From Azolla caroliniana (Eukaryota; Plantae; Polypodiophyta), in NCBI GenBank assembly GCA_043228905.1, contig JBHGNT010000005.1, positions 15,004,001 to 15,068,000 on the forward strand: a stretch of DNA of 64,000 nt. Reading direction: 5' to 3'. Positions 10,037 to 47,479 of the stretch are shown here, one piece after another; position 1 is the first letter of the stretch, and each line of letters begins with the position of its first letter. Position numbers and translations under genes: made by a program. The notes beneath the pieces are model-generated. The model was given only the letters and a program-made list of their open reading frames with translations. It was not told where the DNA came from and did not search any database.

Positions 10037-10647
10037 TGTCATGCCTTTCGGCTCCGGATTGTTGCGGGAGTCAGGGGGGAACCACTGAGGTTTTGGACTA
10101 GGAGAAAGAAAATTCTAAGGCAATGAAGAATATGAAATATGTTGTAAGAAAGAAATATATGAAAAACTCGTGAATCCCATGAGTATAGTGTATTAGTGAG
10201 TACTTAGATTAAGAGAGAAAAATAGTTAGCAAATTCGTGAATCCCACGATTATATTATATTAATCTACCCTTGTAAAATAAGCAACAACCACTATACATC
10301 TTTCTCTCTCCCTTATATAGTGTTGGAAGAGTCTAAGTTTATCACATGCAAGCATCATGCTTTTCCTAACTTTAGTTTTCATGCACATTGCATGTGCATG
10401 ATTAGCTTTCCTAACTTTAGTTTTCATGCACACTACATGTGCATGATTAGCTTTCTATCCCATCTTTTTCTTTTTTTAACTCAAGTGTGTATGCATGAAT
10501 AACTTTTTGTACCATGCATATCTAGAATATTTACATGGGATAAAATTTAGTATAATTTTAAAATTCATAATATGCTAGTATAGTGGTAAGGTTGGGGTTT
10601 GTCCACGTGGAGGTACAGGGTTCGAACCTTGCCCTATGCACGTAATA
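10037..10647 (-). mobile_element. LTR (tRNA-like-module family), no internal domain attached
   Basis: TGTCATG at the left end and CGTAATA (decayed terminus) at the right end. Carries a TATA-like CTATATAAG on minus, the shared GGACCAC..TTGGAC motif and an A/B-box module. No TSD seen. Confidence 0.6.
10576..10632 (+). promoter_or_regulatory. tRNA-derived Pol III A-box/B-box module inside an LTR
   Basis: TAGTATAGTGGTAAG (A box, as in plant tRNA-Asp D arm) followed 43 nt later by GGTTCGAACC (B box) in hairpin CAGGG-TTCGAA-CCTTG. No acceptor stem, so not a functional tRNA. Confidence 0.65.
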
Positions 10648-13600
10648 AATATTTTTAATATTTTATTTTATTTATTATACGCACTTTAAATCGGATATAG
10701 TATTTTACATATTTCACGTAGTGTGTGATTACGGCTCATAGCTATCGTAGCTTCAATACATAGCTCGCATTCGAAGAGAGAAGAAGAAGAAGAAGAATCG
10801 ACATAATGAATACTCAAATGGGGAGTGCTCTCCCTACCGAAAAGTTGGATCGAAACAACTTCGCATCTTGGGAGTACAAGATGCACCAATACCTTGTCGG
10901 ACAAGGCTATTGGAGCTACATCAAAGGAGCACATGAAGACCGACCCGCCGAAGCGGCTCCCGGATACGCGACATGGGAGCAAGCCGCAAGCTGCGTGATG
11001 TATTGTTTGGCGACATGTGTTCACGACCACATGCTCGGTTACATTCGAGAAGCCAAGACGCCGAAGGAAGCATGGGAAAATCTATGAAAGATTTTCGCCG
11101 CCAACACGACCACGAGGAAGCTTTAACTCCACCAAGAGTTGAACAACATTCAACAAAGGGACATGTCCATCACGACATACACCTTGAAGATCAAGGAGCT
11201 TTGCGACTCGCTCAGCTCAATAAGTGTAAGTATAGATGATGATGAGTGGTGCAAATATGCCTCGGCGGCCTCGCACCACGATTCGGCACGATGCGAACCG
11301 CCGTTCTAGCACGGGAGAAATCTCCCTCCTTCCTCAAGCTCCAATCAATGCTATTGGTCGAAGAAAACCACGTGCGTACAAGGAGCAATGAGTCGGAAGG
11401 CCACATGCTCTACACGCACTCTAATGGAGGAAGAGGACGCGGACGAGCGAGAGGCCGATTCGGCCAAGGACAAGGCGGACGAGGTCCGACCTACGACAAC
11501 AACTCCCAATTTCGGCCGCAAAACGGAGGCCAACAAGGAACCTTCGCAAGAAGGGGGAGCTTCCACTCCAGCCCAAGCTGTCAAAACGCAATCGAATGCG
11601 GATATTGCGGAAAGCTCGGCCACCATGAAGAAGAGTGCCGAAAGAAGATGCGTGAATCGGCTTCCACAAGCCGACAACTCACGAATTACGCACACAACTC
11701 CGACTACGAAGGTCGTGGCGGAATGTATCCGAGCGCAAAAATTGACACATCCTCGAAGTAGCACGGGCCATGATGAACGAGAAGCATATGCCCGAGTCAT
11801 ATTGGGCCGAAGTTGCAAATACGGCCATCTACCTAATGAACCGGTGCACAACATCCGACGTACACGGGGTCACTCTGCACGAAAAATTCTTCGAAAAGAA
11901 GCTGAACCTATCACATGTTCGGATATTCGGCTCCATTGCGTACGTGCACATCCCCGACGAGAAGCGTCAAAAGCTCGACCTGAAGTCGGAGAAATGTATC
12001 CTCGTAGGATACTCACTGGAGCAAAAGGGGTACAAGTGCTACAACCCCTCAACTCGAAAATCTCGAGTAAGTCGAGACGTCGTTTTTGACGAGTCCGCAT
12101 CCTAGTACGCACCAGAGACAACTCCAACTCTGATTCCGCTTGACCCGGAATTCGCCGAACAAGAGATTGAGGATGAAGATCACCTTATGCGCATACTCGA
12201 AGAAAGTCCGATCATGACCTGATTGAGCGGACCACAATAGCCTTTGAGCGATCAAAGCACATCATGGCCTAGCCCGAAGATGCACAAAGGCAAGGCGAAA
12301 ATGTCGGAATACGAAGATGATCGCTTCAACGACGATGAGTCGACTCACTCACTCGACAGTGAGTTCGGCGGTTTCGAGGTACCTATCGAAGCCAAGAAAG
12401 CCCTCATCTCTGCAAATGAAAAGCTCCGCTGATCCACTCGTGAAAAGAACCCCATAAACCGATTCAGCTACAACGATTATATGGCGTACCATTACGCCTT
12501 TCTGATGAAGGTAGTGACAGTACGGGAGTGGGAAACCTTTTCGGAATCTGTGAAGGACCCGCGATGGATTGAAGCAATGAACGAGGAGATGTAGGCACTA
12601 CGGAAGAATTAGACGTGGGATCTCGTTCCCACCTCACCACACAACAAGGCGATCGGATGTAGATGGATCTACAAGGTGAAGTATAACGCTGATGTCTCCG
12701 TGAACCGCTACAAAGCTTGACTTGTAGCGAAAGGATACGCTCAGACGCATGGCGTCAATTACAAAGAGACCTTTGCCCCGGTGGCAAAGATGACGACGGT
12801 GCACACCGTAATTGCGATTTCCACGGCGAAACGGTGGCACCTCCATCAAATGGATGTCAAGAACGCCTTTCTACAAGGCGACTTAGAAGAGGAGGTGTAC
12901 ATGATCCAACCACTTGGCTTCAACTCGAGCACCCATCCGAAAGCTATTTGCCGACTCAAGAAGCCACTCTACGGCCTCAAGCAAGCACCACGTGCTTGGC
13001 ATTCGAAGATAACGCAATATCTTCATCAAATCGGCTTCCTGATGTCAAAATCGGACAACTCCCTCTACATACGAAGCGATTCCGCAAGTCCGTGTCGAAT
13101 ACAAGTGTATAATGGACGTATTCACACTATCCCTTTGTATAGCTTAAGTTTGGGCCATTTGTGTAATTAGCATAAATGGTAGTTGCCCTAAGTCGGTCAC
13201 TATATAAAGTGACCTTGTAACCTTTTTGTAAGGTTGGGTGTTGTATTATTGCTTTGTGGAATAGAAAGTCTTTTGCGCCTCTCTCTCTCTCTCTCTCTCT
13301 CCCTATCTCTGTGCAACGACCTAGAAACTGTCAAACGCAGGTACAGAAAAGAATCGAATGCTTCTTGCTCTTCCGCATCGCCACGGCCTTGTCTTCAACA
13401 TCTGGTATCAGAGCCTGCACAGTATTCGGTCCTTCAATCCGCTGTCGGCCGTCGTCTTAACCTGCACAGCATTCGGTTTCCTGCGTCATTCGAAGAAGAG
13501 AGAAGAAGAAAAACGAGGCTTGCATCTCTTCGCGTTAGATCATCTTCGCTTGGAGTAAGCCAACCGGTTGTACTCCGTTCCTTGTGATCGCAACCGCTCG

Positions 13601-14090
13601 AGGTGAAATCCCCTTGTGCAACATTGACACGATCGTGCTTCACTCGGTTAAACGACATCCGAAAAGGTCATTAAACGCTGCTCGCCGCTCGTTGTAACCA
13701 CTCGGTGCAGATCGGTCTCAAGACAACAACCCCAATTCGCGCTTCATCCGGCTGATCGACATTCGGGAGGATCAGTTGGATCTGTCTCTCTCGTCGCTGC
13801 AGCCACCCGAAGCAGAATCGGTCCAGATAATCGGTTTCAATAATCGGTATTCGGCATATATATCCGAAGTGAACCGGGCTCACTCCGACTCGGCAACATT
13901 CGGGAAGACCAGTCGGTCCTGTCCCTCAAGTTACCGGAGTCAATTCGAGCAAGTTCAACAATACATATATCCGAAGCCGAACCGACTCGGGTTCAAATCC
14001 GACTAGAACGATATCGGGTGAGCCAACCGGCTGCACTCCAACAAGGTTCGTAGTCAACTCCGAACCGAGCTTCGTCAACCGAAACCAAAT

Positions 14091-15229
14091 TTGATGGCAT
14101 CAACATCCGGCTCGTCAGAAATGAGTCTACGAAAGTTCGATGGATCGAACTTCAACTTCTGGAAGGAACAAATGCAGGACTATCTCATAGTCAAGGGGCA
14201 AATCGATCCCATCGAAAATGAAGAACCTCCAGAAGGATACAAACCAATTGAGTGGCAGAAGCTGGACAGAATTGTCCGCGCCACGATTCGGATGCACCTA
14301 TCGGAATCGGTATACTTTACGGTGCAATCGTGTACGACAGCATTCGAACTGTGGAAAACACTGTCGGACACTTACGAAAAGAAGGTCGCCGCAACGAAGA
14401 TGTTTCTGATCCGGCGCCTCTACAACTTGCGGATGAAAGAATCCGATTCGGTTCAAGCACACCTCAATGAGTACGAAAGCATAAGCTCCCAAATCTCGTC
14501 ACAGGGGACGGCAATCGTGTCTTCTCGATCTTCACCGATTGGCTCGCTATGGTAGAAAATCAAACCGACCGAAAGCTGAAATGCTTTCGGACAGACAATG
14601 GGGGAGAGTTCAAATCCGAAGAATTCGTCAAATTCTGCCGACAACGCGGCATCTGACGTGAATTTACGGCACCACACAGTCCGGAGCAAAACGGGATTGC
14701 AGAACGAATGAATCGGACAATCCAAGAACGGATAGTTTCCATGCTCCAACACTCCGGACTGTCGGATGGCTTCTGGGCAGAGGCTCTACTCACGGCAGTA
14801 CACATAATCAATATGTCGCCAAGCAGACCTCTAGGACTTCAAATTCCTCAGGAACTATGGATCGGCAGTAAGCCGAATTACGACAAGCTGAGGATCTTCG
14901 GATGCGAGGCGTACGCCCTTATTCCGAAAGATGATCGCCGAAAACTTGCACCTCGGTCCAGGAAATGCATTTTCCTTGGATATGGATCCGACGGCGAAAT
15001 GGGATACCGACTCTGGGACCCCGAACGCAGACAAATCGTTCGAAGTTCGGACGTTGTGTTCAACGAGTCGGCTATGAATCCATCAGTCGAAAAACCGATC
15101 GAAGTCCGAAGGGTAACATTTTCCGATGTGCCGACCCTTCAAGAAGGCCCCGCTCTTAACAAACGGTCAGCTTCACGGGTAGCTGAACCTTACATTACCG
15201 ACTCGGACAACCCCGACTCGGCACAGTAG
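14091..15229 (+). pseudogene. Truncated copia gag fused to integrase C-terminal half
   Basis: LRKFDGSNFNFWKEQMQDYL (gag) joins near 14516 to FRTDNGGEF...QNGIAERMNRTIQER (integrase core). Confidence 0.85.
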
Positions 15230-15418
15230 AACAATCCGCTTTCGGACCATCCGACCTCGACACCCGATGCGACCAGTCCAATCTTACCTCGACGATCCGA
15301 GAGACTGTCGCAACCTCCGGAGAGGTATTCTCCTGGAATTTTCTTCACCGACGCCGGCGAACCGACATCTTACGAAGAAGCATCGACATCTGTCGATTCA
15401 GCCACCTGGCATCTGGCG

Positions 15419-16936
15419 ATGGAGTCGGAAATGCACTCCATTCGGGCAAACAAGACTTGGGATCTGGTCGAATTACCTAGGAACCGGCGTGCTCTTCCTT
15501 GCAAGTGGGTTTATCGACTAAAAGAGACGTCTGATTCGACCACCCCAAAGTACAAGGCCAGATTAGTTGCGAAGGGCTTCCGACAAGAATATGGCGTCGA
15601 CTTCGACGAGATTTTTTCACCAGTGGTGAAAATGACAACCCTTCGTTTTCTACTCGGCGTAGTGGCAGCCGACAACTTGGAGCTGATTCAGCTAGATGTC
15701 AAAACCGCCTTCCTCCATGGTGATCTTGAAGAGGAAATTTATATGGAACAGCCAAAAGGCTTCGTGGCAACTGGCCAAGAACATCTAGTCTGCCGACTCA
15801 GGAATAGTCTATACGGCCTCAAACAGGCACCGCGACAATGGTACAAGAAGTTCGACGACTTCATCCAATCGATCGGCTTCTCAAAAAGCGATGAGGACCA
15901 TTGTCTCTTTACCAACACAGCTCAAGATGGATCACCCATCTTCCTCATCATTTACGTGGACGACATGCTAATTTCTGGACGCCACGCGGGCGAACTTGCC
16001 GATCTCATTCGGCAACTGCGGTTGAAGTTTGCCATGAAGGACCTCGGTCCGGCACGACACATACTCGGCATGAAGATTAGTCGGCATCGCGATAAACGAC
16101 ATCTTTTTTTGTCTCAGACCGACTATATCCGACGTGTCTTAGAACGCTTCAACATGCAATCAGCCAAATCTGCATCAACCCCGCTCCCCATGAATCTTCG
16201 GCTCTCTCAGCGAGACTGCCCGACATCCGGTCCGGAGGGGGAAGATATGAAGTCGGTACCGTATGCACCGGCAGTCGGCTCCCTTATGTACCTGATGGTC
16301 GCGACACGGCCTGATATTTCTCACGCCGTAGGAGTCGTTAGCAGATTTATGCACAATCCTGGCCGATCGCATTGGAACGCAGTCAAGCATGTGTTCAGAT
16401 ATCTGGCTGGCACAAAAGACCACGGCATTCTTTTCGGTCCGAACCGAACCTCAGGCATAGTCGGTTACACCGACTTGGACTTCGCCGGCTGTATAGACAG
16501 TCGGAAATCAACAACCGGATACTGCTTCAAATTCGGCAATGGAGCAATTTCGTGGAAGTCGAAACTTCAGGAGTGCACAACGACCTCAACGACCGAAGCA
16601 GAATATGTAGCTGCGTCCGACGCTGCAAAAGAAGCTTTGTGGCTCGGCCGGCTGGCGCACACGTTTCGACAAGTCGACCATGACTCGGCTCCAGTTGTCT
16701 ATAGCGACAGTCAAGGTGTTGTTGCCTTGTCGAGAAATCCGGTTCTCCACAACGCCTCCAAACATATCGACGTTCAATATCACTTCGTTCGGGACTGCGT
16801 CATTTCAGGGAAAATCGGTCTAGAGAAAATATCCACAACCGACAATGTCGCAGACGGAATGACCAAGTGTCTTTCGGCAGACCGCTTTCGGTCTCTTCGG
16901 CATCAGATGGGCGTAACGACAAACCAGTCCGGTTAG
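15419..16936 (+). CDS. Copia reverse transcriptase and RNase H (open 505-aa segment)
   Basis: KARLVAKGF, QLDVKTAFLHG, LYGLKQAPRQW, IYVDDML and KHIDVQYHFVRD motifs. Confidence 0.93.
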   Translation: MESEMHSIRANKTWDLVELPRNRRALPCKWVYRLKETSDSTTPKYKARLVAKGFRQEYGVDFDEIFSPVVKMTTLRFLLGVVAADNLELIQLDVKTAFLHGDLEEEIYMEQPKGFVATGQEHLVCRLRNSLYGLKQAPRQWYKKFDDFIQSIGFSKSDEDHCLFTNTAQDGSPIFLIIYVDDMLISGRHAGELADLIRQLRLKFAMKDLGPARHILGMKISRHRDKRHLFLSQTDYIRRVLERFNMQSAKSASTPLPMNLRLSQRDCPTSGPEGEDMKSVPYAPAVGSLMYLMVATRPDISHAVGVVSRFMHNPGRSHWNAVKHVFRYLAGTKDHGILFGPNRTSGIVGYTDLDFAGCIDSRKSTTGYCFKFGNGAISWKSKLQECTTTSTTEAEYVAASDAAKEALWLGRLAHTFRQVDHDSAPVVYSDSQGVVALSRNPVLHNASKHIDVQYHFVRDCVISGKIGLEKISTTDNVADGMTKCLSADRFRSLRHQMGVTTNQSG

Positions 16937-19070
16937 AGCCGGACACAGCGCAGGATGGTTTCCGACAACCGACATCAGTTCCTTAACGATCGGCTTCAAC
17001 TCTTCCGACCCGACCAGTTCGGTCTTCTGCCTCGGACCCTGCCGACTCGAACAAAACTGATATGTCCGAGAACCTAGGTTTATACCTGTAATCTTAGATA
17101 ACCCATGTATACGCCCATTACGGGGGAGTGTTGAATACAAGTGTATAATGGACGTATTCACACTATCCCTTTGTATAGCTTAAGTTTGGGCCATTTGTGT
17201 AATTAGCATAAATGGTAGTTGCCCTAAGTCGGTCACTATATAAAGTGACCTTGTAACCTTTTTGTAAGGTTGGGTGTTGTATTATTGCTTTGTGGAATAG
17301 AAAGTCTTTTGCGCCTCTCTCTCTCTCTCTCTCTCTATCTCCCTATCTCTGTGCAACGACCTAGAAACTGTCAAACGCAGGTACAGAAAAGAATCGAATG
17401 CTTCTTGCTCTTCCGCATCGCCACGGCCTTGTCTTCAACAGTCCGATCGTCATCATCTTATATGTGGATGACCTAGTCATTGGAGGTGAGCATCTCGTCG
17501 AAATCAATAAGCTCAAATCCCTCCTTTCCGACAAGTTCGAGATGACGGACATGCAGGAGCTCCACTACTTCCTTGGCATCGAGGTAATTCGGTCTCCGGC
17601 CGGAATCATGATCTCTCAACGGCACTACATCCTCAACTTACTATACAAGTTCGGGATGGCTGAGTGCAAATCTGTGGCAACCACGCTCGATCGTAATCTC
17701 AAACAAGATGCGAACTCCGGCACCAAAGCGTGTGAGCCAACTCAGTATCGACAACTCATTGGGAGTCTCATCTACCTCACGATCACACGACCCAATCTTA
17801 GTTATCCGGTCGGTCTCCTTAGCCAATTCATGCAAACACCGCGTGATACTCACTTGGATTGCGCTAAGCGAGTTCTACGCTACGTGAGCGGCACAATGGA
17901 TTGCGGCATCCTCTACAAGACCGCGATGCCAATACGACTCAAGGGGTACACAGATGCCGATTGGGCCGGCTACGAAGCTGATAGAAGATCAACCTCCGGA
18001 TTTGTTTTCTCCCTCGGCAGTGGAGCAATATCCTGGAGTAGCAAGAAGTAGCCTACCGTCGCTCTTTCGAGTACGGAGGCGGAATACAGGGGCGCAGCCG
18101 TAGCTGCGTGTGAAGCCGTATGGCTCAAGAGGATTTTGAAGGATCTGGGCGTACCCATCAAGGATCCGACTTCCCTTTACTACGACAACATGGTGTTCCA
18201 CGCGTGGACAAAGCACATCGAAGTGCACTATCACTTCATCCGATAGCGCGTTATGGCTGGCGATGTCGATCTACAACACATTAGCACCAATCTTCAAATG
18301 GCCGACATATTCACCAAAGCCTTAGGAGCCGACAAGCTATGGAAATTCATGACTGATCTCAGATTGACGATCCCTGACCTGCCAAGCTTGAGGGGGAGTA
18401 CTGAAGACACTACGCAATAACGTGTGGATTCTGCAACCACGCAACGAAGCAGCGAAGAGCCGATCTACCGCGCAAAGCCGCGAAGAAAGACGCAAGCCGA
18501 AGCACAGACTTCGCAACTACGCACGCCGAAGCACAGACTTTGTAACTACGCACAACGCAAGCTAGAGCATGGATTCCGCAACTCCGCATAAAGCAAGTTG
18601 ACGTGAGTCGACGCGGACTCCGAAACGCGAGTTGAAGCGGATTTTAAATACCGTCTGAAACCGACCCGACTTGAGCTTGAGGGGGCGTGTTGAGAATCAA
18701 GCTCAACTTGGTATAGTGTGTGAACTCACCTTGAGAGTGAAGAGACACTCCAACGGTCAAGAGTCACCATTATGTCACCACTTTGTATTCTAGCATTTAG
18801 TATGAGTCATAGAATCATATTCTATGACACATAACTTATGAGCTTTCACATTCCCCATGCTCCATGAGTCTTGTAGTTAATGAAGAGAGAGGGTGACTAC
18901 ATAAAGCACCCTCCTCCCACCTTGTATAATGTTGAGTCTTTCTCCTTTGTCAATAGACTTTTACCGTGCGTATTCTCTGTGTTTCACTCACACACACACT
19001 CTCTCTCTTACACACACACATAACTCACATCTCTTCCGCTTCACAAGAATCCATCTCTTGATTCTTTACA

Positions 19071-19235
19071 ATTATCATAAATTTTTTCATCATACTTATC
19101 ATAAAATTTGTCATCATACTTATCATAAATTTGGTCATCATACTTATCATAAATTTGGTCATCATACTTATCATAAATTTGGTCATTATACTTATCATAA
19201 ATTTGGTCATTATACTTATCATACTTATCATAATT
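19071..19235. repeat. 24-bp minisatellite (CATCATACTTATCATAAATTTGGT), about 6.5 copies
   Basis: Seen directly. It generates the spurious HHTYHKFG / MISMMTKF ORFs. Confidence 0.92.
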
Positions 19236-19364
19236 GATCATCATAAATAAAAAGGAGACTCTACATATAATACATATAAAAATTAATAAGTTAAAATAAG
19301 AGTTTAAAGTTAAAAGTTAAAAGTTAGAGCCTATAGAGAATATTTTTGAGTATTTTTTAACCTA

Positions 19365-19564
19365 TAAACTTATAAACCTTTAAACCTTTAAACCGAACCA
19401 CATAAACAAAAACCGATAAGCCGATAAACTGGTAAATTGAAAAACCAAACCGAAACCGATTAGTAACATTTCAAACCAAACCAAACTGTTTATTTATCTT
19501 TGAACCTATAAACCGTTAAGCCACAATTTTTTGGTTTGGTTCGATTTGAGCCGAAACCGGGCCT
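19365..19564. mobile_element. Possible end of a hAT/MITE-like DNA transposon (AAACCG subterminal repeats)
   Basis: Dense AAACCG/AACCGA motifs ending in GAAACCGGGCCTA. The other end was not identified. Confidence 0.4.
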
Positions 19565-20230
19565 ATTGCTACTCAAGAGTGGCATGTCGAGATGTTGTAG
19601 CCCAAGCATCTCTGAAAAATGTTGCAACTTGTTGGTTCCAAGTGCCTTGGTGAAGATGTCGTGAAATTACTGATCCGTCTTAACATTCTAAAGTTCGACT
19701 TCACCGTTGAGGACTCGCTTGCATACAAAGTGATAATGCACTTCTATGTGCTTCGTTTGAGCATGGAACACAAGATTTTTGGCGAGTGGCATGCTACTCA
19801 TGTTGTCACAGTAGATCGAGATCAGAGTCGGTACTTCGATCCGGAGGTCTTGCAGCAACTGCTTAAGCTAGATGGCTTCATATATGGCAACGTTAGCACC
19901 CTGATACTTAGTCTCAGTGCTCGATAGGGCCATTGTTAGCCGCTTCTTGTTGCTCCACGCAATAGCCACGCTACCAAGAGAGAACATAAATCCGGATGTT
20001 GAGCGACGATACGACGCATCATCGGCCCAATTGGCATCTGTATATCCGACTAGCTTTTCAGTTATGCTGTGTCGGTATAACAGTCCCCGGTCCTTAGTGT
20101 TGGTAACATACCTCAATGTTCGGTGTGTGCACTAAAGGTGCTCCATGGTTGGCTTTTGCATAAACAGACTTATCACCCCGACTGGATAGATGATGTCTGG
20201 TCAGGTGATTGATAGATAGATGAGGCTTCT

Positions 20231-32027: not shown

Positions 32028-33071
32028 GTTAGGAATTTGTCTCTCCTATGGGAGAAGTCAATAGTCGAAGTCCTATGGGAGAAGTCGACAATGTAAGTCA
32101 AGGAAGAAGTCAGTAGTCAAATCGACAAGCCGAATATAGGATGGTCGATCGGATTGACTAGCGAGTCGACAAGGTGGTCAACTAGCTTGGAGGAGATAGA
32201 GAGTCGACTACATTGAATGGATGCGACAAATCAGGCCGACCGGATGGTCGAAGATAGGTCGATAAGTCAGGCCAATAAATTATTATTATTATTATTTATA
32301 TAATAATAATAACATATAACTCCTATAAATAGAAATAGATGGTCAAACTTATTGAGAATGATGTGTATAGAGCTTCTGTCACAGACAAGTATAATAGAGC
32401 AAAGTGAAGACAAGATTAGAACACAAGAGAGAGAAAAGGAACAAGAACTCAACGTATAGAATCCGTAACTGGTGTTGTTCACCTTGATTAGAATCAAGGT
32501 GCACCTGAGTATTTATACAAGAAGGTAGGGTTATGTAAGCCAGTTAGAAATAGAGTATGCATGAGGATGCATGCAATAGAGAATGCATGAGGATGTATGC
32601 AATAGAGAATGCATGAGAATGTGTGCAAGCTAGAAACTTCCAATGTTCAGTCTACACTACATGAAGTTGGATTTAGTACATGGATATATATGTAGTTCAA
32701 TTGGTGAGGTTGCCCAATAGAGACCATGAGTTCTTGGGTTCAATCCCTACTTTCGTTCGTGGCATATGTTTATGACAGCTTTTGTTGTAGAGAGTAGAAA
32801 CGAAGAGACGTGAGGGTACGCGAGAGAGAGTGGCATAGTTTAGTGGAACTAGCCACTTAGTGGGTATTCTATGATTTACATAGATTTGTAATCGGTTTTT
32901 CTTTCCTATACCTCTGTTTATAGTGTAGATCCGCTGCCTGTGGTTTTCTCATGTTTTAGGGTTTCCACGTAAATCTTGTGTAATGTGTATTCTGTTCTCT
33001 GGTTTCTTGTACATTTCAGTTTATCTTTCTTGTCTCACTACGATTAGAACACTAAAAACTGGTATTAGAGC
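32028..33071 (+). mobile_element. Interrupted copia 5' LTR with tRNA-Met PBS
   Basis: Starts TGTTAGGAAT. The 3' part has GTGGTTTT...GGGTTTCCACGTAAAT like the 20231/59877 LTRs, followed by PBS TGGTATTAGAGC at 33060. Interrupted by 32377-32764. Confidence 0.6.
32377..32764 (-). mobile_element. LTR (tRNA-like-module family)
   Basis: TGTCAC...GTGGCA termini, with A box TAGTTCAATTGG (32693) and B box GGTTCAATCC (32737) next to the terminus. No TSD match. Confidence 0.55.
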
Positions 33072-33613: not shown

Positions 33614-33666
33614 GTTGAATATGATGGTAAATATATATGCGGAAACATATGAGAACCTGTCTACGC

Positions 33667-36600: not shown

Positions 36601-37610
36601 GCCACGAAAATTCGACATCCGTCCGGCCCGATTGCCTCGTCCCTTTTCTCCACCGGGCATCCCTTGATCGGGATGTCGTCTAAGAATGGCATGGTGATGT
36701 CCGGGATACAATCCCTGAGCACTTTGTTCATCGCGTTCACCATGTGAGCCATTGAGTTCGTCCCTCCTTGTGGCAGGGTACACATCCGCACTAGGCCAAG
36801 AGGAGTCCGCATCGTCGTAATGTCTCTGCTCTCCACGACTAGTTGGAACTGATCGTACCCCGAGTACAGATCACCGACAGAATAGATCGACCTTCCAGTG
36901 AAGGCCTCCGCGAACTCGTCTATGGTCGGTCCGATCCCAGCATTATGGATGGTCACCTTGTTGACCGGTTGTAGGTCCTGGATGAAGCGTAGCGTGCCGT
37001 TCTTCTTCGGCACCGTAAACCACCGATTCGAATACGGGTCACTCGACGGTTTGAGGATGCCCATCTCCACCTTTTGCTTTAGGAGCTCCATCAACTTCGG
37101 GATGTGAGCTCTTGGCACCGGAATCGGCTTGAGATTCCACGGTACATGCGGTACCGTGAAGATCACCATCGGTTCGACAATTGTTGGGTCTACGCACCCG
37201 ATCTCCTCCGGTGAGAATGCGAAAGCCTTCCCGTGCTTTCCGAGCATTCTCTGAAACCGGTCCTCCTCCGCCGGCAGTAGGAAGCCGCCCCCACCGACCT
37301 TGAGCTCCCATAGCGTTATGTCGGTGAATCGGTTCCCTATGCCAGCCGGATTCCGTAAACTTGGGTTCGACGCGACCCCTTTTATCCGCTCCTCGCTGCC
37401 CTCCGGCAAGGGTGCCGCGACTGGCCTCACCTTCCAGTCCATAGTCTTGTATTTCGTATCCACGCGGGCCATCTGATCCGACCCGATCCTTTCCCCGAAG
37501 TCCGCGATGACTTCGTACAATCCCATCGATCCTACCGGAACGGTCTGGTCTTCTCTAAGGTCTTCATCGATAACCTTTCGTAGTTCGCCCAAGGTGTCGT
37601 CAATCGTCAA
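33667..37610 (-). mobile_element. GC-rich Ty3/gypsy element, 5'-truncated, frameshifted pol (RT-RNase H-integrase) plus 3' LTR
   Basis: RT (GDLYSGYDQF, LPQGGTNS, PFLDDIPIKG), RNase H (VTVDTNPTGIG) and integrase (HESPWAGH, NGKVERGH, WFGPY). PPT GGTGGGGGTGGA precedes LTR 34288-33667 (TGTCGTGA...GTGACA). Confidence 0.92.
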
Positions 37611-38114
37611 TATCTAGAAAAACCGGGTCCTCAATCCAAGACGACTCGTGGCACTCGTCGTTTTAAAGGGGGGATAGTGTCATGATATGGCAAGACTCGA
37701 ACCCATGACCTTAGGTTATATGGGTAGAGCTCTTGACCATTATATCATCTATTATAATACGTAGGATATTATTTTCATTTACATTTTATTATAGGAAATT
37801 AATGTATATTCCAGATTTCTCTGGAACATTCTAGAAGCTTCAGGATTACTCCTGTAAACACTATAAAAGAGGGCACTAGGCATTATGTTGAACCAAATTG
37901 GTTCAACGCCAGTCTTAAAGCCTTTTAGCCACCATTGTATATTCTCTTCACATAATACATATCTTTCTTATCATCACTCTCTCCCTCTCTCAATCTCTCT
38001 CTTTCTCTCTGTCTCGCTCACTTCTTCCTTCTCTCAAAGAAGTTCTACACCTCTAATAGTACTAATCCTTCGTTTAGTACTAATTCCTTCTCTATCTTAG
38101 TATTGTTCCTGACA
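37611..38114 (+). mobile_element. 3' end and LTR of a Tcn1-like chromovirus
   Basis: GGCACTCGTCG..AAAGGGGGGATAG-TGTCA parallels 47011-47043. LTR 37678-38114 ends CCTGACA. Confidence 0.8.
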
Positions 38115-38372
38115 AGAGTTGACCCACCACAAGATAGAGTCTCGACATAGTCAACCAGATGATTAAATGAGGGTAGCTAGGCCTCTTATTTATAACGATA
38201 CCCAAGGCCCCCAAGCAAGTTCACACTTGGCCTAATGGGTTGTCTCAATCCCAAGGATTAAAAGTAATCCTCCCCTTCTTTACACTCTCGTTTAACCCTC
38301 ACACTTATCCACGTGTATAGAATACTACGGTAAATTCTCACCACGGGATATTATATGGTCATGCCTGTAACA
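38115..38372 (-). mobile_element. Partial LTR of the 21603-31002 chromovirus family
   Basis: Highly similar to 21805-22062, ending GCCTGTAACA. Confidence 0.9.
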
Positions 38373-40242
38373 GGAGATCTACATGCATCAACCAGAAGGA
38401 TTTGAGAAGAAAGGGAAGGAGCACCTGGTGTATCGGCTAAAGAAGAGCTTATACGGACTGAAGCAAGCTCCTCGGCAATGGTACCGGAAGTTCGACTTCT
38501 TCATGACCGACCAAGGGTACCACAAAACGCAGGCCGATCACTGCATGTTTGTGAAGAAATTTGACAGAGGAGACTTCGTGATACTCCTCTTATATGTGGA
38601 TGATATGTTGATCGTCAGACGAGACCAAGGCAAGATTCGAATGCTGAAGAAGGCTCTGAACCGGACCTTCTCAATTAAAGACTTGGGTCCAGCAAGATAG
38701 ATATTGGGAATGCATATCATCTGGGACCGGTCGAAGAAGCTATTGTGGCTGTCATAGGAAAAGTATGTGACGAAGGTGCTTCTGCGGTTCAACATGTCGG
38801 ATGCGAAACTGGTCAGATCGACACTTCCGGCAAACTGCAAGCTATCCGGAAAGTAGAGCCCTAGGACAAAGGCAGAGAAGGCGGATATGATGAAGATAAC
38901 ATATGCCTTTGCTATCGGGAGCCTGATGTACGCAATGGTGTGTACCCGGTTGGATATCAGATATGCAGTCAGAGTGGTGAGCCGATTCATGAGAAATCCC
39001 AAAAGAGAGCATTGGAACGCGGTCAAGTGGATACTCTGGTATTTGAAAGGCACCTCGAGTATGTGCCTCCAATTCAGCTTTGGTAAACCCCAACTCGACG
39101 GATTCATGGATTCGGACATGTCGGCTGATGCGGATAACAGCCGGTCTACATCTAGTTATGTCATTACTTATGCAGGAGGAGCTATTTCGTGGCAGTCGAG
39201 GCTACAAAAAATAGTTGCATTGTCAACCACAGAAGCGGAGTACATGGCAGTTGTGGAAGCCGGCAAGGAGATAATCTGGATGAAGGACTTCATCGGAGAG
39301 ATAGGGATTCAACAGGAGGAATACCGGCTCTACTGCAACAATCAAAGTGCCATCCACCTTGCAAAGAACGCGACCTACCATTCCCAGACGAAACATATCC
39401 AACAGAAGTACCACTTGATCTGGGAAAGAGTAGAAGATCAAGAGTTTGTGCTTATGAAGATCCACATGAAGGAGAATAGGTCGAACATGCTGACCAAGGT
39501 GCTGACAACTGACAAGCTGGAGGCGTGCCAAAAGCAGATCAAGCTAACAAGACATCCTACGCCGGAGTGAAGGGGGAGATTCTTGGGAAATTGGTCCCTC
39601 CGGATGGGATCCAGTGATGAATGAAGAGGACCCGGTTGTTGGGAGACAGGTCCCTCCGGATGGGAAGGGAGGAGAACAGTGTTGATGAACAAACTCGGCC
39701 GAGGCTGATAGGCCGAGGCCGGAACCGGATGAGGAGTACCCGGCTACGGAGAGCCGAATGGTGAAGACCCGGTGAGGAGTGCTCACCAGATGAAGAGACA
39801 CATTCGTAAATATGTTTCTGAGAGTCCATAGAGGCTATATTTGTAAATAGCCGAAAAGTCATATTAGTATAAATATGATTTAGGGCAAACTTTTAGTTGT
39901 TGTTGTCGTTTTTGCTTTTGCACAAGATTATAGCGCGTAACAGTGTACAGAGAGAAAGAGAGAGAGGAAGAGGTCACTGCCTCTATTGTAACCGCCACCT
40001 GTGGCGAAGATCGTGAGCACGAGGTCGTTGCCTCCGTGAACTCACTGTTGTACATTCTAGCATAGTGATAGTTTGCAGCCTGTGGGCTGCCGTGGTTTTT
40101 TCCCTAGTTTGGGTTTTCCACGTAAACATCCTGTGTACTCTTCTCTTCTTTGTGTCGTGCGTTTCATTTCCCATTTTCTGTGTATGATTCTAAGCTCGGT
40201 TGTGGCCGAGTGTTGCGTATAGAGAGCGTGCAGTTCCCGTCA
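38373..40242 (+). mobile_element. 3' half of a Ty1/copia element (RT-RNase H pseudogene plus 3' LTR)
   Basis: LYGLKQAPRQW, LLYVDDML and ALSTTEAEY motifs, PPT GAAGGGGGAG, LTR 39581-40242. Coding part closely resembles 63355-64000. Confidence 0.9.
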
Positions 40243-40716
40243 CCGGTGAGAACCGAAAGAGAGCCGGTGAGAACCAGAAGAGAGCCGGTGAGAACCGAAA
40301 GAGAGACATATATGTAAATATGTTTCTTGAGTAAGCCTATTGAGGCTATATTTGTAAATAGCCCTAAGTTCATATAAGTATAAATATGACTTAGGGCAGT
40401 CACTTTATGGATATGTTGTAGGCATTGTTATATTGTTGTATAGTGAGAGCGACAGAGAGATACAGAGAGATACAGAATGATACTCTGTTGTAACCACCAC
40501 AGCTCGAGGTCATTGCCTACGAGTCTCTGATTATACCCCTTCTCTTCATAGTGATAGTTCAGAGTCTGTGGGCTCCTGTGGTTTTTCCCTATTAGGGTTT
40601 TCCACATAAAAATCTTGTGTTCACCTTTTTAGTTCCCATTTCTGTGTTCTCCATTCTCATCGAACTATTCAAGACTCGGTTGTGGCCGAGCAATATTCCG
40701 CGCTAATTCTCTACAC
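40243..40716 (+). mobile_element. Remnant of a related copia LTR (target of the preceding element), starting with three 21-bp repeats
   Basis: CCGGTGAGAACCGAAAGAGAG x3, then homology to 60010-60482. Ends CTCTACA. Confidence 0.8.
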
Positions 40717-43700
40717 TATGGAGTCCACAACAAGCAAGAATATATGCATGTTCTCTCTGAGCTCGACATGCTAACAACCAAATTCGTGGCACTAGAGCAT
40801 GACAATCAAAGATTACTAGGAGACCTACAACAAGTGCTGAGAAAGTACAACAATATGAAGAATTATCTCAACGAGTGCATCAATTAGAGGCTACTCTATT
40901 GCAACGAAAGTGACGGACGTTCAAACCTCGTCGAAGGAACCCAAGATTAGTCTGCCAGCCAGGTTTGATGGTACAAGGTCTCAATTTTGTGGAATTTTAA
41001 ATCAGGTACAGCTTGTGATTAAATTGCATCCTAGTCGTTACCCAACTGATGTTGCTCATGTGGGACTAGTTGGTACCTTGTTCACGGGTACCGCATTAGC
41101 GTGGTTTGCACCACTCCTAGAGAAGCACTCATCATTATTAGAAGATTTTGGAGGGTTTATTAATGAGTTCAAAGCCAACTTTGGAGACACTGATAGTATG
41201 AGGACCGCAATAAACAAAATTCGGCGATTACGACAAGGAGATCGTCCTACTTCCGCTTATGCTGTAGATTTTCGCCTTCTAGTATGTGATATTCCATGGG
41301 ATGAGGCGGCATTAATGGACCAATTTCTTCAAGGTCTGTGCAATGATGTGAAGGATTTACTTCTTACCTTCCATGATTATCCAAAATCTCTTACTGAAGC
41401 AGTAAGCCAGGCCGTGCGATGTGACAATCGCTTATTTGAGCGGCGTTCTGAGCGCCAACAAATGTTACGTTTCCGACCAACAGAAATATATGCTTCAATG
41501 GTCGCAACTCCACCCCAATTTATCAAAGTCAAGTGTGGTGGAAGGCCGTACTCCAATGGAAATCGAGACAACACGACGTCAAGGACCATTATTGATTGCT
41601 GAAAAGCAACGACAGCGAGTGAATCGTCTATGCCTCTATTGTGGTGGTCCAAGGCATATTGTTGTGAATTGTCCACATAAACCACGATGACAAGTTAATC
41701 AAGTAAGTGCTCATGTCAATCCTATATCAATTTCTGCCCCGCCTTCTCGTAACCCAAGTAGGCCTAGTAGTCCCTGTCATAAAAATATATTTGATGTCTT
41801 GCGCCAATTAGATGATATGTTAAACGAGTAAGTCCGGCCAAAATCGGAGCCATTTGGTTGGACAGCCCGAGGCATGTACCCTCCATCTCTAGTTATGGTT
41901 CCATTTCATCCGGTCAAGTTAGTCGAGTTTTCTCTGCACAAGTTGAGTTTAACACATCTAGGTGCCATCGAGTCCCAGCTTCTGCCCTCTTAGACTTTGG
42001 AGCCAACTCTTGTTTCATGGATCGTGAGTTTGTTGTAATGCATAATATTCAGTTGCATAAGCTCCCAATCCCAGTGTCTGTCGGAGTCATTGATGGACGC
42101 CCCATAACATCAAATGATATAGTTGAAGAGTCTGAACCAATTCGTGTAGTACTAGGCAATTTGGCTAGTGTCATCTCATTCAACATCATTAGTAGTCCAA
42201 AGCACTCCCTAGTCTTGGTCTTTCATAGTTTGAGCTACATAACCCAACTATTGATTGGAGAAAAAGAACCATTGAAGAGGTCACAATACAATCTGAGTCT
42301 CTTAAAACTCCAACAAAGGATATGACATTCCAAAAGATTTCGACAATCTCTATACATCAGCTACGTGAGGAAGGACGGAAGGAAGACATGTTGGTGTTCG
42401 AAGTTTTAGCAACTCCCACATCGAGTTCACAGGAATCAGGGGTCCAACTACCGAAGAAATATGTAGAATTCTCCGATGTGTTTGATAAGGTGAAGGCCAA
42501 TAGACTACTAGAGCATCGACCATATGATTGCCCGATTGATTTGCAGCCCAGAAAAGACATGTTGGTGTTCGAAGTTTTAGCAACTCCCACATCGAGTTCA
42601 CAGGAATCAGGGGTCCAACTACCGAAGAAATATGTAGAATTCTCCGATGTGTTTGATAAGGTGAAGGCCAATAGACTACTAGAGCATCGACCATATGATT
42701 GCCCGATTGATTTGCAGCCCAGAAAAGAGCCTCCATGGGGGCCAGTTTATAACCTTTCTTCCACAAAGTTAGAGGTTCTTCGGGAATATATCGATGAGAA
42801 CTTGGCGAATGGGTTTATCCAGCATTCAAGATCTCCTGCCAGCACACCCATATTTTTCGTTAAGAAGAAAGATAGTTCGCTTCGTCTAGTCGTGGATTAT
42901 CAAGGATTGAATAAAGTGATATGCTCTACCATTGATTTCGAACCTTCTGGAACGCCCCAGTGGAGCTAAGTATTTCACAAAGTTAGATCTTCGAGCTGCT
43001 TACAATCTTGTTCGAATTCGTCCTAGGGATGAATGGAAGACTACTTTCCGTACTCGATATGGCCATTTTGAGTGTACAGTGATGCCATTTGGTCTCACGA
43101 ATGCAGCAGCAGTTTTCCAACATATGGCAAATGACATTTTTCGAGATTTCCTCGATATTTTCATCATAGTTTATCTAGATGATATCTTGATCTACTCAAA
43201 AGCTCAAGAGGATCATGATATACACGTTCGACAAGCTTTGGAACGATTGCGTGAATATGGTCTTTATGCAAAATTGCATAAGTGCAGTTTTGACCAGCGT
43301 CAAGTGGAATGTTTGGGGTACATTGTCTCTTCATATGGCATCTCTATGGATCCAGCAAAGGTTCAAATAGTTTTGGATTGGCAAACACCACAGTCTGTGC
43401 GAGATGTACAGTGTTTTTTCGGGTTCGCAAACTTTTATCGCAAGCTCATCAAAGATTATTCAAAGATCGTATTGCCCCTCACTCAACTAACACAGAAGAA
43501 TCGACCATTTGTGTGGAGTATAAATGCAAACTCTGCATTTGAAGGATTACAGCAAGCATTTACATCTGCACCAATTTTGATGCATGCTGATCCATTGAAG
43601 CGCTTTATACTTGAAGCCGATGCATCCAACTTCGCACTAGGAAGCGTATTATCCCAGATTAGCAATGATAGCCAACTGCACCCTGTGGCTTTTCATTCAC

Positions 43701-44620
43701 CGAAATTCGAAGCTGCAGAAATCAACTATGAGATTCACGACAAAGAGCTTCTTGCCATTGTGGATTCTTTTCAACAATGGTGTCATTTTTTGGAGGGTTC
43801 GTCTCAACAAATCATTGTCTATAATGATCACAAAAATCTAACGTACTTCCAAAGTGCTCGAGTCTTGAGTCGTCGACAAGCTCGTTGGGCACGGTTCCTA
43901 ACTCGTTTTGATTTCGTAATTCTATATCGCCCTGGGACGCAACAAGGAAATCAGATGCTTTATCTCAGCGTTTGTATATGGAACTTCAACCATGAGAGGC
44001 TGCATTTGAAAATCAGAAGTAAATCCTCCTGGGTCCTAACCGTCTACGACTAATGTCATTTCATGCTATAGACACACCCGGGGATTCAAGTCTTCTGGAC
44101 TCCATTCAGGAGCATATTGAGACTGATCAATTCGCCCAAGACATTCTGAACCATATTATCCCAGATCGCGCTTCTTGTTCACAATCTCAAAATCCTCGTC
44201 AAGACTACAACCAGTTCAATTGGCATGATGGTTTACTTTTTCGACAAAATCTCTTATATGTGCCTGATGGTCCTTCTCGACTCCAAGTCTTGCAACAATG
44301 TCATGACACACCAATGGCTAGAAATATCGGCATCCACAAGACTTTGGCGTTAATTTCTCGAAGGTATTGGTCGCCACAACTTCGCCATTTTGTTACGGAT
44401 TATGTTCGTAGTTGTGATACATGTTGCCGATCCAAAAAACCTCGACATCATCCATATGGCTTATTACAGCCAATGGCCATTCCTGAGAGTCCATGGAAAT
44501 CTATTTCATTGGACTTCATTAAGGATCTACCACCTTCCAAGGGTTTTGATTCTATTCTTACGGTAGTAGATCATTTTACCAAGATGGCACATTTTCTTCC
44601 CTGCACAAAGGCCATTACGA

Positions 44621-45965
44621 TGTCGTGATGTTTTTGACACATAGTGTGAAACCACCCTCAAAAGAGAATAAAATAGTGGTCCAAATAAACTAATTTTCTT
44701 AAGTCAAGTATAGTAATAAATGAAAGGATAAAAAGTTAGAAAAGGTTTTCGAAAGTAGACAAAAATAAAGAAAAAGATGGGAAAAGAAAAGTAGTCGTGG
44801 ATATGAGCAAGGTCGAGTAAAAAGCTCATAATTTCCTAGTCAAATTTCCAAATTAGAAAAGAAAAGCTGCATAAGAAATCTAACCTAAAGAGCTTTCCAA
44901 GAATATATTGCATGTGAAATTTGAGGCTAGAAAATAGAAATAGTGAGGAAAAGAAAAGTCGACTCATATAGAAAAGGTTTTTTTAGGGGGAAAAGGCAAG
45001 CAATCCTAAACCTATAAATAAGAGCCTATTCTAGTGAAGAAAGGGGGGGAGGGAGAAGGAATGTGGAAGCTCTACTCAAATGGAAAGCGGAAGAAGAAGG
45101 ATCAACAACATCGAGTGGCATCATCAACAAAGAAACTCCTTCTATAGTCCACTCTCTTCGTTCCTCCACCTCTCTTCCCCCATTCCTTTATAAACAATCC
45201 TTCATATTCACATCCAACCCATTGTAACATGATTCTTATATTATAAAAGAATCTATTATATTGATATAAATTAATGTTTTCTTTCATCTACTTGTCTTAT
45301 GTGTAAATCTTGATTGTGCTTATTTGTTATCGTCATTTGTGCTTATTTGTTTGTGTGTCTTGTGACAAGGGAGCGTTTCAGGCTTGCCCATGCACCTCTC
45401 CTTTCACAAAGGCATTCAAACCTACGTGTCTTATATTTTATCTTCGTTTGTGCTTATTTTTTTGTGTGTCTTGTGACAAGGGAGTGTTTCGGGCTTGCCC
45501 ATGCACCTCTCCTTTCACAAAGGCATTCAAACTTACGTGTCTTGCGTGTTAGTGTAAATCGTGCTTGTGTGTCCGTGTGACTTGTGGCAAGGGAGCGTTC
45601 GGGCTTGCCCATGCAACTCTCCTTTCACAAAGGCGTTCGAAATTGTGTCTCTTGTATGTGAACCTTGCTTGTGTGTTCATGCGACTTGTGGTAAGGGAGC
45701 GTTCAAGCTTGCCCATGCACCTCTCTTTTCACAAAGGCGTTCGAAATTGTGTCTCCCGTGTGTAAACCTTGCTTGTGTGTTCACGTGTCTTATAACAAGG
45801 GAGCATTCGGGCTTGCCCATGCACCTCTCTTTTCACAAAGGCATTCGAAACTCTGTCTCTCGTGTGTGTGAGGAAGCCTTTTCCTTGTGTGTTCGCGTGT
45901 CTTGTAACAAGTGAGCGTTCGGGCTTGCCCATGCACCTCTCTTTTCACAAAGGCATTCGAAACTC
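44621..45965 (+). mobile_element. Truncated LTR-like insertion in the chromovirus integrase
   Basis: Begins TGTCGTGA right after PCTKAIT, has TATA CCTATAAATA at 45011, and ends in a stem-loop array before host integrase resumes (ELLMREVFRHHG). Confidence 0.75.
45355..45965 (+). repeat. Tandem array of six ~105-120-bp units, each with a ~60-nt stem-loop
   Basis: Core GTGTCTTGTGACAAGGGAGCGTTCGGGCTTGCCCATGCACCTCTCCTTTCACAAAGGCAT repeated six times. Confidence 0.92.
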
Positions 45966-47479
45966 CGAGTTACTCATGCGAGAGGTGTTTCGGCATCATG
46001 GTCCTCCTAATGATATTATCAATGATCGGGGTCCCCAGTTCATCTCAAAATTTTGGCGGTACATGTTCAAACTCTTACATACTTCTTGCAAACTCTCTTT
46101 CGGCTACCATCCAGAAACTAACGGACAAAGTGAGCTCACCAACCAAACAGTAGAACAATATCTTCGTTGTTTTGTCAGCTATCAACAAGATGATTGGATT
46201 AATCTATTACATTTGGCGGAATTTGCTTACAACAACTCAGAACATTCGTCTACTGGATATTCCCCATTTTTTGCAAACATTGGGCACCATCCTCGGACTA
46301 TGCTTGAGCATCCCGAACTCCCGACAAACCCGGCTGTTGAAGATCAGCTCACCTGACTCCAAGAAGTTCAAGATATCTTTTTGCACCATTTATGTGATGC
46401 TCAAAACACTCAGAAGAAGGTTGTCGACTGCCATCGACGTGATTCATCGACTACGTTTCAAGTGGGAGATCGAGTATGGCTTTTACAAGGTCGTATTAAA
46501 ACAACCCGACCTTGCTGCAAATTGGATTATCAACGTTTTGGCCCATATGTGATATCTGGTAAGATCAATGATGTGGCATTTCGCCTTGACCTTCCCCCTC
46601 GTATGCATCTTCACCCGGTCTTCCATGTTTCACTTTTGGAGCCGTACACAACCAGCTCTATTCCAGGCCGTCTTACATCTCCCCCACCTCCAATCGAAGT
46701 TTCGGATGGCTCCGAATATGAAGTTGCTGTCATTCTTAACTCCAAGATCGTTCGCAACAAATTCTATTGTCTTACATCTCCCCCTCCTCCAATCGAAGTT
46801 TCGGATGGCTCCGAATATGAAGTTATTGCCATTCTTGACTCCAAGATCGTTCGCAACAAAATCTATTATTTGGTTGACTAGTTAGGTTATACACCTAATG
46901 ATCGAACATGGGAACCTCTCGAGAATCTTGCTAATGCCTCTGAAATGGTTGATGCGTTTCACAACAAATATCCCCATAAGCCAAGTCTGAAATCTTGTCT
47001 TCCGACTAGTGGAACTCGTCTTCGAAAAGGGAGGATAATGTCAGGAAGACATACATTTTGCCCTTGCAAGGATTCGAGCCCACAACGTCTTGGTCTTTAT
47101 GTTAGACCTTTAACCATTATAATAAACATATATGATGTATAGTTATAATAAATATATTTTTAGTTATTACAAGATAATTAGAGTATTCTAGAATGTTCTA
47201 GGATATTCCATGATTATATTAAATATCATAAATATCTGAAATATTCTAGAACATTCTAGAATACTCCATAAGGACCTATAAATAGGTGTCTATTCATTCA
47301 TCACGACTCATTCGGTTCAACACCAGTTTGTAGCCCCTTAGCCTACTCTTTGTAATCCTTGCTCTCTTATAATATAAACTCTCTTTCCATTTCTAGTGTT
47401 CTCTCTCTCTATATGTATATACCTTCTATTATCATCTTATCTTTCTCTCTCCTATTCTCAAGTCTCAACACTCTTGACG

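What the first reader, a model, noticed from the sequence alone, without database searches (positions are those of the whole stretch)
10576..47124. Four LTRs carry an outward-facing, tRNA-derived Pol III promoter module at their 5' edge
Seen: A-box/B-box pairs with tRNA-like spacing (~43-44 nt between box starts) at 10576-10628 (TAGTATAGTGG/GGTTCGAACC, +), 32693-32746 (TAGTTCAATTGG/GGTTCAATCC, +), 37694-37747 (TGATATAATGG/GGTTCGAGTC, -) and 47070-47124 (TATTATAATGG/GGCTCGAATCC, -). In each case the B box ends 16-31 bp from the LTR terminus, and the sequence between the boxes has diverged while the boxes have not. In the two LTRs oriented by a PPT (37678, 47039; Tcn1-like chromoviruses) the module is antisense and in U3. 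The other two orientations are inferred by analogy. Established: Cassandra TRIMs carry 5S-derived Pol III promoters in their LTRs, and TFIIIC-bound B boxes act as chromatin barriers. Inference: these LTRs keep a tRNA-derived module that either drives antisense Pol III RNA or recruits TFIIIC to insulate the LTR promoter from flanking heterochromatin. I do not know of a description of this arrangement.
Basis: partly seen in the sequence, partly recalled or inferred. Interest (0 to 1): 0.8.

Follow-up and report, generated by a model that had tools for sequence, protein, structure and literature searches.

The report
Fern retrotransposons carry backward tRNA promoter
A lineage of protein-coding jumping genes, likely from a fern, keeps a tRNA-type promoter signature (A box, B box, fixed spacing) facing outward at the edge of its terminal repeats, where it likely docks the tRNA-gene transcription factors as a built-in shield for the element's own promoter, an arrangement I did not find described.

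Summary
The four A/B-box pairs are real, and they are a lineage trait, not sporadic SINE insertions. I fetched 77 related chromodomain loci. The antisense module sits at the U3 edge in 56 of 68 readable LTRs and in 36 of 38 that reach the R motif; sense-strand and shuffled controls give about 0. A-to-B spacing is 43-44 nt in 54 of 56, while distance to the terminus varies (11-63 nt). The B-box core changes more slowly than second codon positions, the spacer faster than third positions. No cloverleaf, common fold or common terminator is kept. The carriers are Tcn1-like, self-priming chromoviruses with intact gag/pol and a TATA box. Selaginella SM-Tcn1 lacks the module. Closest known is Helenus (Kojima 2024), which is non-coding, with a sense module at the opposite LTR end. 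Best reading, with function untested: a DNA-level TFIIIC/TFIIIB platform guarding the LTR promoter (0.5); functional antisense RNA 0.2. Against: in the 10576 family C56 is changed in about 38% of contig depth, and 76 of 77 loci come from one accession series. The scan notes I looked up hold no report of this module; one fungal Gypsy note is analogous.

The parts
10037..10647 (-). LTR of a very high-copy family of unknown lineage; the end at about 10647 is approximate
   Evidence: TGTCA end at 10037 shared with L007 2041-2152; continuous high contig depth over 10100-10645; TATA at 10319-10313 on the - strand
10576..10628 (+). A box (10576-10586) and B box (10619-10628), spacing 43; antisense to the LTR if its orientation is right
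   Evidence: a subfamily has a different spacer of the same 27-nt length (loose ends at 10591); 10623 C>T in 34-41% of depth in four runs
32377..32777 (-). Solo LTR (TGTCA...TGACA, 4 of 5 TSD match) of a second family sharing the CAACACCAGT R motif; TATA at 32517-32511
   Evidence: related to the PPT-preceded LTR at L007 1170
32693..32746 (+). A box (12-nt type) and B box, spacing 44, antisense to the LTR
37609..37677 (+). Remnant of the pol C-terminus (..KPGPQSKTTRGTRRFKGGIV) with the PPT at 37665-37674
37678..38114 (+). 3' LTR of a Tcn1-like family; TATA 37862-37868; predicted self-primer 37895-37906
   Evidence: the same 12-mer pairs with the PBS in relative L052
37694..37747 (-). A box and B box with AGGTC at tRNA positions 44-48, spacing 44
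40859..47040 (+). Decayed Tcn1-like gag-pol (gag, protease, RT, RNase H, integrase, SH3, chromodomain), with frameshifts, stops and internal duplications; 5' LTR not found; PPT 47024-47035
47039..47479 (+). 3' LTR; TATA 47277-47283; predicted self-primer about 47309-47320
47070..47124 (-). A box and B box (one B-box mismatch in this copy), spacing 44

Best explanation
These coding, self-priming Tcn1-like retrotransposons keep an outward-facing tRNA-type A box and B box at fixed spacing in the first 70-115 bases of U3, and this likely works as DNA: it would bind TFIIIC and seat TFIIIB on the AT-rich tract between the module and the Pol II TATA box, forming a boundary that likely shields the LTR promoter from flanking silent chromatin and read-in transcription. 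Shown: presence, strand, position, spacing and conservation pattern of the boxes; no kept tRNA fold or terminator; an intact TATA box and self-priming PBS; absence from a Selaginella relative. Inferred: a single capture of a tRNA or tRNA-SINE head into U3 of an ancestral 3' LTR, copied to both LTRs by reverse transcription; factor binding; and the benefit. Pointing away from gag-pol, the module cannot make the element's genomic RNA. Any short antisense RNA would be a by-product.
For: Module in 56 of 68 LTRs and 23 of 32 families; sense strand 0 of 32; shuffles mean 0.15, max 2 of 40. 36 of 38 LTRs that reach the R motif carry it. Spacing is 43-44 in 54 of 56 with 40-49 allowed, while B-to-terminus is 11-63 nt. 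Parsimony steps per column on a tree from the coding DNA (49 copies): B core 1.2, A core 5.1, positions 44-48 4.4, spacer 11.1, flanks 13.2 and 10.7, against codon positions 3.8, 3.0 and 8.0. CpG at 56-57 reads CG 16, CA 11, TG 1 in 28 families; C56 is the base whose mutation severely lowers TFIIIC binding (PMC4228148 passage). The kept GTC at 46-48 matches the tRNA-gene B-box consensus GTCnnnnGTTCRAnYC (PMC3159450 passage). An unanchored alignment of 16 LTRs peaks at terminus, B box, A box, TATA and self-primer. No stem covariation in 13 of 14 cloverleaf pairs and no consensus fold. AT content is 0.73-0.84 for 70 nt upstream of the A box, then 0.6. Barrier, insulator and Pol II roadblock effects of Pol III complexes are described in yeast.
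Against: There are no binding, chromatin or expression data. In the 10576 family the critical C56 is T in 34-41% of summed contig depth in four runs; the site is a palindrome, so read on the other strand this is the tolerated G57A change. A barrier needs mainly the B box (recalled), yet the A box and exact spacing are kept, which suits true initiation as well. A roadblock in the 3' LTR would lie in the path of the element's own RNA. Pol III complexes can also silence nearby Pol II promoters. L057 appears by eye to have an LTR without the module, and L026 and L070 fail the test. The column statistics use rows preselected for box matches, with spacing fixed at 43/44 (6 of 34 families dropped), which inflates box conservation. 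76 of 77 loci come from one accession series. Eight other LTR-like stretches in the window lack the module, so it is not generally needed.
Confidence: 0.5

Rival explanations
1. The module is an active Pol III promoter and its antisense RNA is what is selected. From the 3' LTR it would read through the PPT into pol and tune the element's own expression or silencing.
For: The A box and tRNA-exact spacing are kept. AT-rich upstream tract. T4 terminators on the antisense of the last 324 nt of pol are slightly fewer than under synonymous resampling (21 against 28.4, p 0.03, 26 families). A second antisense box pair lies inside pol in one clade.
Against: No common fold and no common 3' end. A T4 run follows the B box inside the LTR in 10 of 28 families, in the PPT complement in 2 and in flanking DNA in the 2 window solo copies; the other 14 representatives have none nearby, and their families' first T4 mostly lies 73-909 nt on. 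The RNA sequence between the boxes is not conserved. Antisense RNA would be expected to invite silencing.
Confidence: 0.2
2. The tRNA-derived motifs were co-opted as sites for a Pol II factor or another host protein (an enhancer), not for the Pol III machinery.
For: The module lies in U3, 114-252 nt upstream of the TATA box. The 10576 family tolerates C56T. Position 10 is T rather than G in 44% of family weight.
Against: The conserved columns are those of the A box, the B box and the GTC extension, at tRNA spacing, with R57 and Y11 toggling as in tRNA genes.
Confidence: 0.1
3. The module acts at the cDNA stage: TFIIIC or TFIIIB bound next to the U3 end of the linear cDNA tethers the integration complex or steers target choice.
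For: The B box always lies 11-63 nt from the U3 end. Other retroelements use TFIIIC/TFIIIB for targeting.
Against: The distance to the end is not fixed. Window copies sit inside other retroelements, not at tRNA genes. The elements already carry a chromodomain.
Confidence: 0.08
4. A neutral relic of one ancient tRNA or SINE insertion, inherited by all families.
For: A single origin explains the shared position. Some copies have lost or damaged it.
Against: The spacer has changed faster than third codon positions while the B core is almost fixed; CpG decay is one-sided; spacer length is kept while its sequence is replaced.
Confidence: 0.07

Closest known systems
Helenus / TRIMp3 (Kojima 2024, PMC10886601; whole text read, supplement seen as search passages)
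   Same: tRNA-like A and B boxes inside an LTR, conserved at the boxes, mostly not predicted to be working tRNAs; B box a few tens of bases from an LTR terminus
   Different: Helenus is non-coding and 311-1263 bp long. Its module is sense and near the 3' (U5) end in the LTRs I saw; the supplement has 206 sense B-box words against 4 reverse-type words, the two shown being palindromic ends of sense boxes. It is proposed to make the template RNA. Here the carriers encode gag and pol, keep a TATA box and a self-priming PBS, and the module is antisense at the U3 end.
Cassandra TRIMs (as described in PMC10886601 and in PMC10853983 passages)
   Same: Pol III promoter from a small-RNA gene inside plant LTRs, ferns included
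   Different: 5S-derived, non-autonomous, replaces the Pol II promoter and transcribes the element
Tcn1-clade chromoviruses, SM-Tcn1 of Selaginella moellendorffii (PMC2864245 passages and Additional file 3; PMC6317226 passages)
   Same: Similar gag-pol layout and about 440-bp LTRs, chromodomain, the same CAACACCAGTCT R motif and a 12-nt self-complementary PBS (compared by eye)
   Different: The SM-Tcn1 LTR has no A/B module at its U3 edge (by eye). The papers report the clade in mosses and club-mosses, not ferns.
tDNA and ETC barriers, insulators and roadblocks of yeast (PMC4228148 passages)
   Same: The proposed mechanism: a product-independent effect of TFIIIC/TFIIIB; a tRNA pseudogene (ETC9) recruits both without Pol III
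   Different: Those are host loci, not a part carried in every LTR of a mobile lineage; not shown in plants here

Membership tests
Tcn1-clade chromovirus | Ty3/gypsy gag-PR-RT-RH-INT order with a C-terminal chromodomain | tested here: met
   Pfam hits along 40859-46880; PF00385 on the homologues of the C-terminus; intact gag and 1218-1234 aa pol frames in 3 of 3 loci checked
Tcn1-clade chromovirus | Self-priming PBS instead of a tRNA PBS | tested here: met
   A 12-nt perfect complement between PBS and R start in 11 of 14 LTR ends with a PBS-like pattern, in three co-varying versions; not testable on the window copies, which lack a 5' LTR junction
Tcn1-clade chromovirus | Placement in the Tcn1 clade on an RT/INT tree with named references | not tested
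   No named reference sequence was available to the tools; likeness to SM-Tcn1 was judged by eye only. The 10576 family has no linked coding region, so its lineage is unknown.
Helenus / TRIMp3 | tRNA-like sequence with A and B boxes in the LTR | tested here: met
Helenus / TRIMp3 | Short non-coding element (TRIM) | tested here: not met
   Carriers encode gag and pol over about 5.3 kb
Helenus / TRIMp3 | Module placed to transcribe the element (sense) | tested here: not met
   Antisense in 23 of 32 families, sense in 0. For the 10576 family alone the orientation is not proven.
Type-2 (tRNA-type) Pol III promoter | A box and B box at tRNA spacing, with invariant C56 | tested here: met
   exception in the 10576 family
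Type-2 (tRNA-type) Pol III promoter | TFIIIC/TFIIIB/Pol III occupancy or a transcript | not testable with these tools
   No ChIP data; no RNA holder listed
Functional tRNA gene | Cloverleaf with paired stems | tested here: not met
   ARAGORN found none in the window or at the module in the 60 of 77 loci scanned; no RF00005 match; 13 of 14 stem pairs at shuffle level
Independent tRNA-SINE insertion | Sporadic presence with its own TSD and tail | tested here: not met
   Same position in 36 of 38 uninterrupted LTRs; no tail or TSD seen in the printed rows

The most novel reading that the evidence does not exclude
An autonomous, heterochromatin-seeking retrotransposon lineage has domesticated a tRNA-gene promoter as a portable chromatin boundary: every new insertion brings its own outward-facing TFIIIC/TFIIIB site beside its Pol II promoter, seeding the genome with thousands of such sites. 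One clade has added a second antisense copy inside its pol reading frame, and the module may have crossed to an unrelated LTR family (10576).
Probability: 0.4. Interest if true: 0.85.

Novelty: new variant of a known kind. Interest (0 to 1): 0.68.

Why it matters
Known small-RNA-derived promoters in LTRs (Cassandra, Helenus, Ajax) are thought to replace the Pol II promoter of tiny non-coding elements. Here a full coding lineage keeps one beside a TATA box and facing away from the element, so it cannot be making the template and needs another reason to be conserved. If it is a boundary, it is a new way for a plant retrotransposon to stay active in silent chromatin, and a compact natural test of whether TFIIIC sites insulate in plants. 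It would also mean that many TFIIIC-type sites in this genome are spread by retrotransposition.

Tried and rejected
No whole genome was held, so a genome-wide copy census was not possible. No RNA holder was listed: no evidence either way. Viral and prokaryotic collections gave no relatives or pattern matches, so the 10576 family could not be linked to a coding region. The sense GGTTCAACRCC at 37900 and 47314 looks like a second B box but is part of the self-primer. The idea that a module RNA primes at the PBS was dropped, because the L040 group changed primer and PBS together while keeping its B box. A conserved cloverleaf, a Levitt 15:48 pair and a consensus fold were not found. A hairpin between positions 18-31 and 54-68 is strong in a few families (permutation p 0.002-0.004, families not independent, no fixed register), so I do not treat it as a conserved structure. 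My first LTR end for the 10576 copy (10139) was wrong: contigs run through it. In one search the count of 5 families with T4 just past the terminus includes L071 through an offset error for short loci; the corrected count is 4. The A-box-like and B-box-like words near 59442-59508 are not picked up by either scan. The Atlas gave no answer for the PPR protein. Passages of one fern genome paper (PMC6786969) had nothing on this.
Full report
Context. The window is a nest of copia and gypsy retroelements beside a PPR gene. Most of the best named matches of the PPR protein are from ferns (Adiantum, Ceratopteris; about 38-45% identity), so the host is likely a fern; I did not narrow it further. No assembly was held.

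Observation. The four box pairs are in the sequence as stated. A textbook A/B search finds 6 pairs against a shuffle mean of 0.6 (max 2 of 40); the four named ones have spacing 43-44. A weight matrix trained on related loci finds only these four. None is a tRNA by ARAGORN or Rfam. The LTRs at 37678-38114 and 47039-47479 follow a PPT and the end of a chromodomain pol. 32377-32777 is a minus-strand solo LTR with a 4-of-5 TSD, a TATA box and the R motif shared with the other two. The 10576 module lies in a 610-bp, very high-copy LTR (10037 to about 10647). Its orientation rests on a TATA box and U3-type motifs, and its lineage is unknown.

Relatives. An alignment of 42 chromodomain-tail proteins (42 of the 56 in hand) was used to scan metagenome contigs. 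Of 380 pattern matches, 199 were confirmed and the best 80 gave 77 loci; 76 belong to one accession series. This query is blind to the module. An LTR start was found in 70 loci, 68 with at least 110 nt; 7 had no clean start. Two of these (L034, L073) still carry the module, and L057 seems by eye to have lost it. The antisense module is in 56 of 68 copies and 23 of 32 families at 80% identity, against 0 on the sense strand and a shuffle mean of 0.15. Among LTRs that continue to the R motif it is in 36 of 38; among the rest, 20 of 30. Spacing is 43 or 44 in 54 of 56 although 40-49 was allowed, while the B box lies 11-63 nt from the terminus. Summed contig depth marks both laid LTRs as high-copy. 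In one search none of the 40 listed variants falls inside either box, but 65 rows were hidden.

What is conserved. In tRNA numbering (63 copies, 28 of 34 families; 6 families without a passable module were dropped and spacing was fixed, which favours the boxes), information content is 1.41 bits for the B box, 1.08 for the A box and 1.11 for positions 44-51, against 0.48 for the spacer and 0.47 and 0.36 for the flanks. On a tree from the adjacent coding DNA the B core changes 1.2 times per column, the spacer 11.1 and third codon positions 8.0. The CpG at 56-57 reads CG 16, CA 11, TG 1. An unanchored alignment of 16 LTRs shows the same peaks plus terminus, TATA and self-primer. The kept GTC at 46-48 matches a published tRNA-gene B-box consensus (PMC3159450, passages), and C56 is the base critical for TFIIIC (PMC4228148, passages). 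Cloverleaf stems do not covary (13 of 14 pairs at shuffle level; pair 30-40 p 0.0015 uncorrected). There is no consensus fold, and only 4 of 28 modules fold with z below -2. A T4 terminator follows inside the LTR in only 10 of 28 families. So the promoter is kept and the RNA is not. Against this, position 56 is T in 34-41% of depth in the 10576 family, although a subfamily there replaced the spacer at equal length.

The carriers. Three of three loci checked have intact gag and pol frames (these are assembled contigs and may merge copies). Eleven of 14 LTR ends with a PBS-like pattern have a 12-nt perfect match to the R start, in three co-varying versions. This is the self-priming typical of Tcn1 (PMC6317226, passages). 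SM-Tcn1 of Selaginella shares the R motif and such a PBS but has no module at its U3 edge (PMC2864245 Additional file 3, read whole and compared by eye). L075, the one locus from another source, also lacks it. Eight other LTR-like stretches of the window lack it. The module is therefore likely a gain within one host lineage, older than the split of families whose chromodomain tails are 49-83% identical to the window's; two outgroups are thin support.

Mechanism. Facing outward and lying 114-252 nt upstream of the TATA box, the module cannot make the genomic RNA. The best reading (0.5) is a product-independent TFIIIC/TFIIIB platform, with TFIIIB on the AT-rich 70-nt tract inside U3, that blocks spreading of silent chromatin or read-in transcription, as tRNA genes and ETC sites do in yeast. 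That chromodomains steer such elements into heterochromatin is recalled, not tested. Binding and benefit are inferred. Rivals: a functional antisense RNA (0.2; the kept A box, a weak T4 shortage in pol with p 0.03, and a second module inside pol speak for it); a non-Pol III enhancer (0.1); a role at the cDNA end (0.08); a neutral relic (0.07).

Comparison and novelty. Helenus TRIMs carry tRNA-like boxes in their LTRs (PMC10886601, whole text), but they are non-coding, and the LTRs seen have the module in sense near the U5 end (supplement passages and word counts). That paper notes that 'not a few' Repbase LTRs have tRNA-like parts but followed only TRIMs, so unreported cases may exist. Cassandra is 5S-derived and replaces the Pol II promoter (PMC10853983, passages). 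PMC13570524 (passages) only cites these. Ten full-text searches found no description of an antisense U3 module in coding LTR elements; subscription papers are mostly not searched. The large supplements of PMC6317226 and the DOC files of PMC2864245 could not be read and may hold further Tcn1 LTRs that bear on how widespread the module is. Scan notes shown (at most 8 per look-up) hold no report of this module.

Verdict. The feature is real, lineage-wide and under apparent DNA-level constraint, and it is a new variant of a known kind. Its function is untested. Interest 0.68.

Noticed in passing
L024 2954-3005 (-); also L040 (two copies), L043, L044, L045, L046: A second antisense A/B-box pair (spacing 42, B box 0-1 mismatch) lies in frame inside the pol ORF, in a lengthened protease-RT linker. 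It is absent from that linker in 14 other loci and in the window. Four diverged variants keep GTTCGA.
   Followed up: partly
window 37895-37906 and 47309-47320; SM-Tcn1: Self-priming primer and PBS pairs co-vary across families. By eye SM-Tcn1 has one too, although PMC2864245 reported finding none.
   Followed up: yes
L019 552-627 (+) and 831-906 (-): Two ARAGORN tRNA genes (Asn, Thr) lie just upstream of a truncated Tcn1-like fragment; no T-run follows either within the bases read.
   Followed up: no
window 10584-10636 and 37687-37737; L018, L024, L032, L039 modules: In several families the region after the A box is complementary to the B box and its 3' side, giving a long imperfect hairpin.
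   Followed up: partly
L065 380-533: Module-like words in tandem (two reverse B-box-like and two A-box-like words) in a context not recognised as this LTR.
   Followed up: no
window 46670-46867 and 42383-42728: Tandem duplications of 99 and about 171 bases inside the decayed pol.
   Followed up: no
window 37678-37685: The pol frame of these elements runs through the PPT and stops inside the first bases of the LTR.
   Followed up: no
window 2564-4918 (-): Intronless PPR gene, 783 aa; best named matches are mostly fern proteins.
   Followed up: partly
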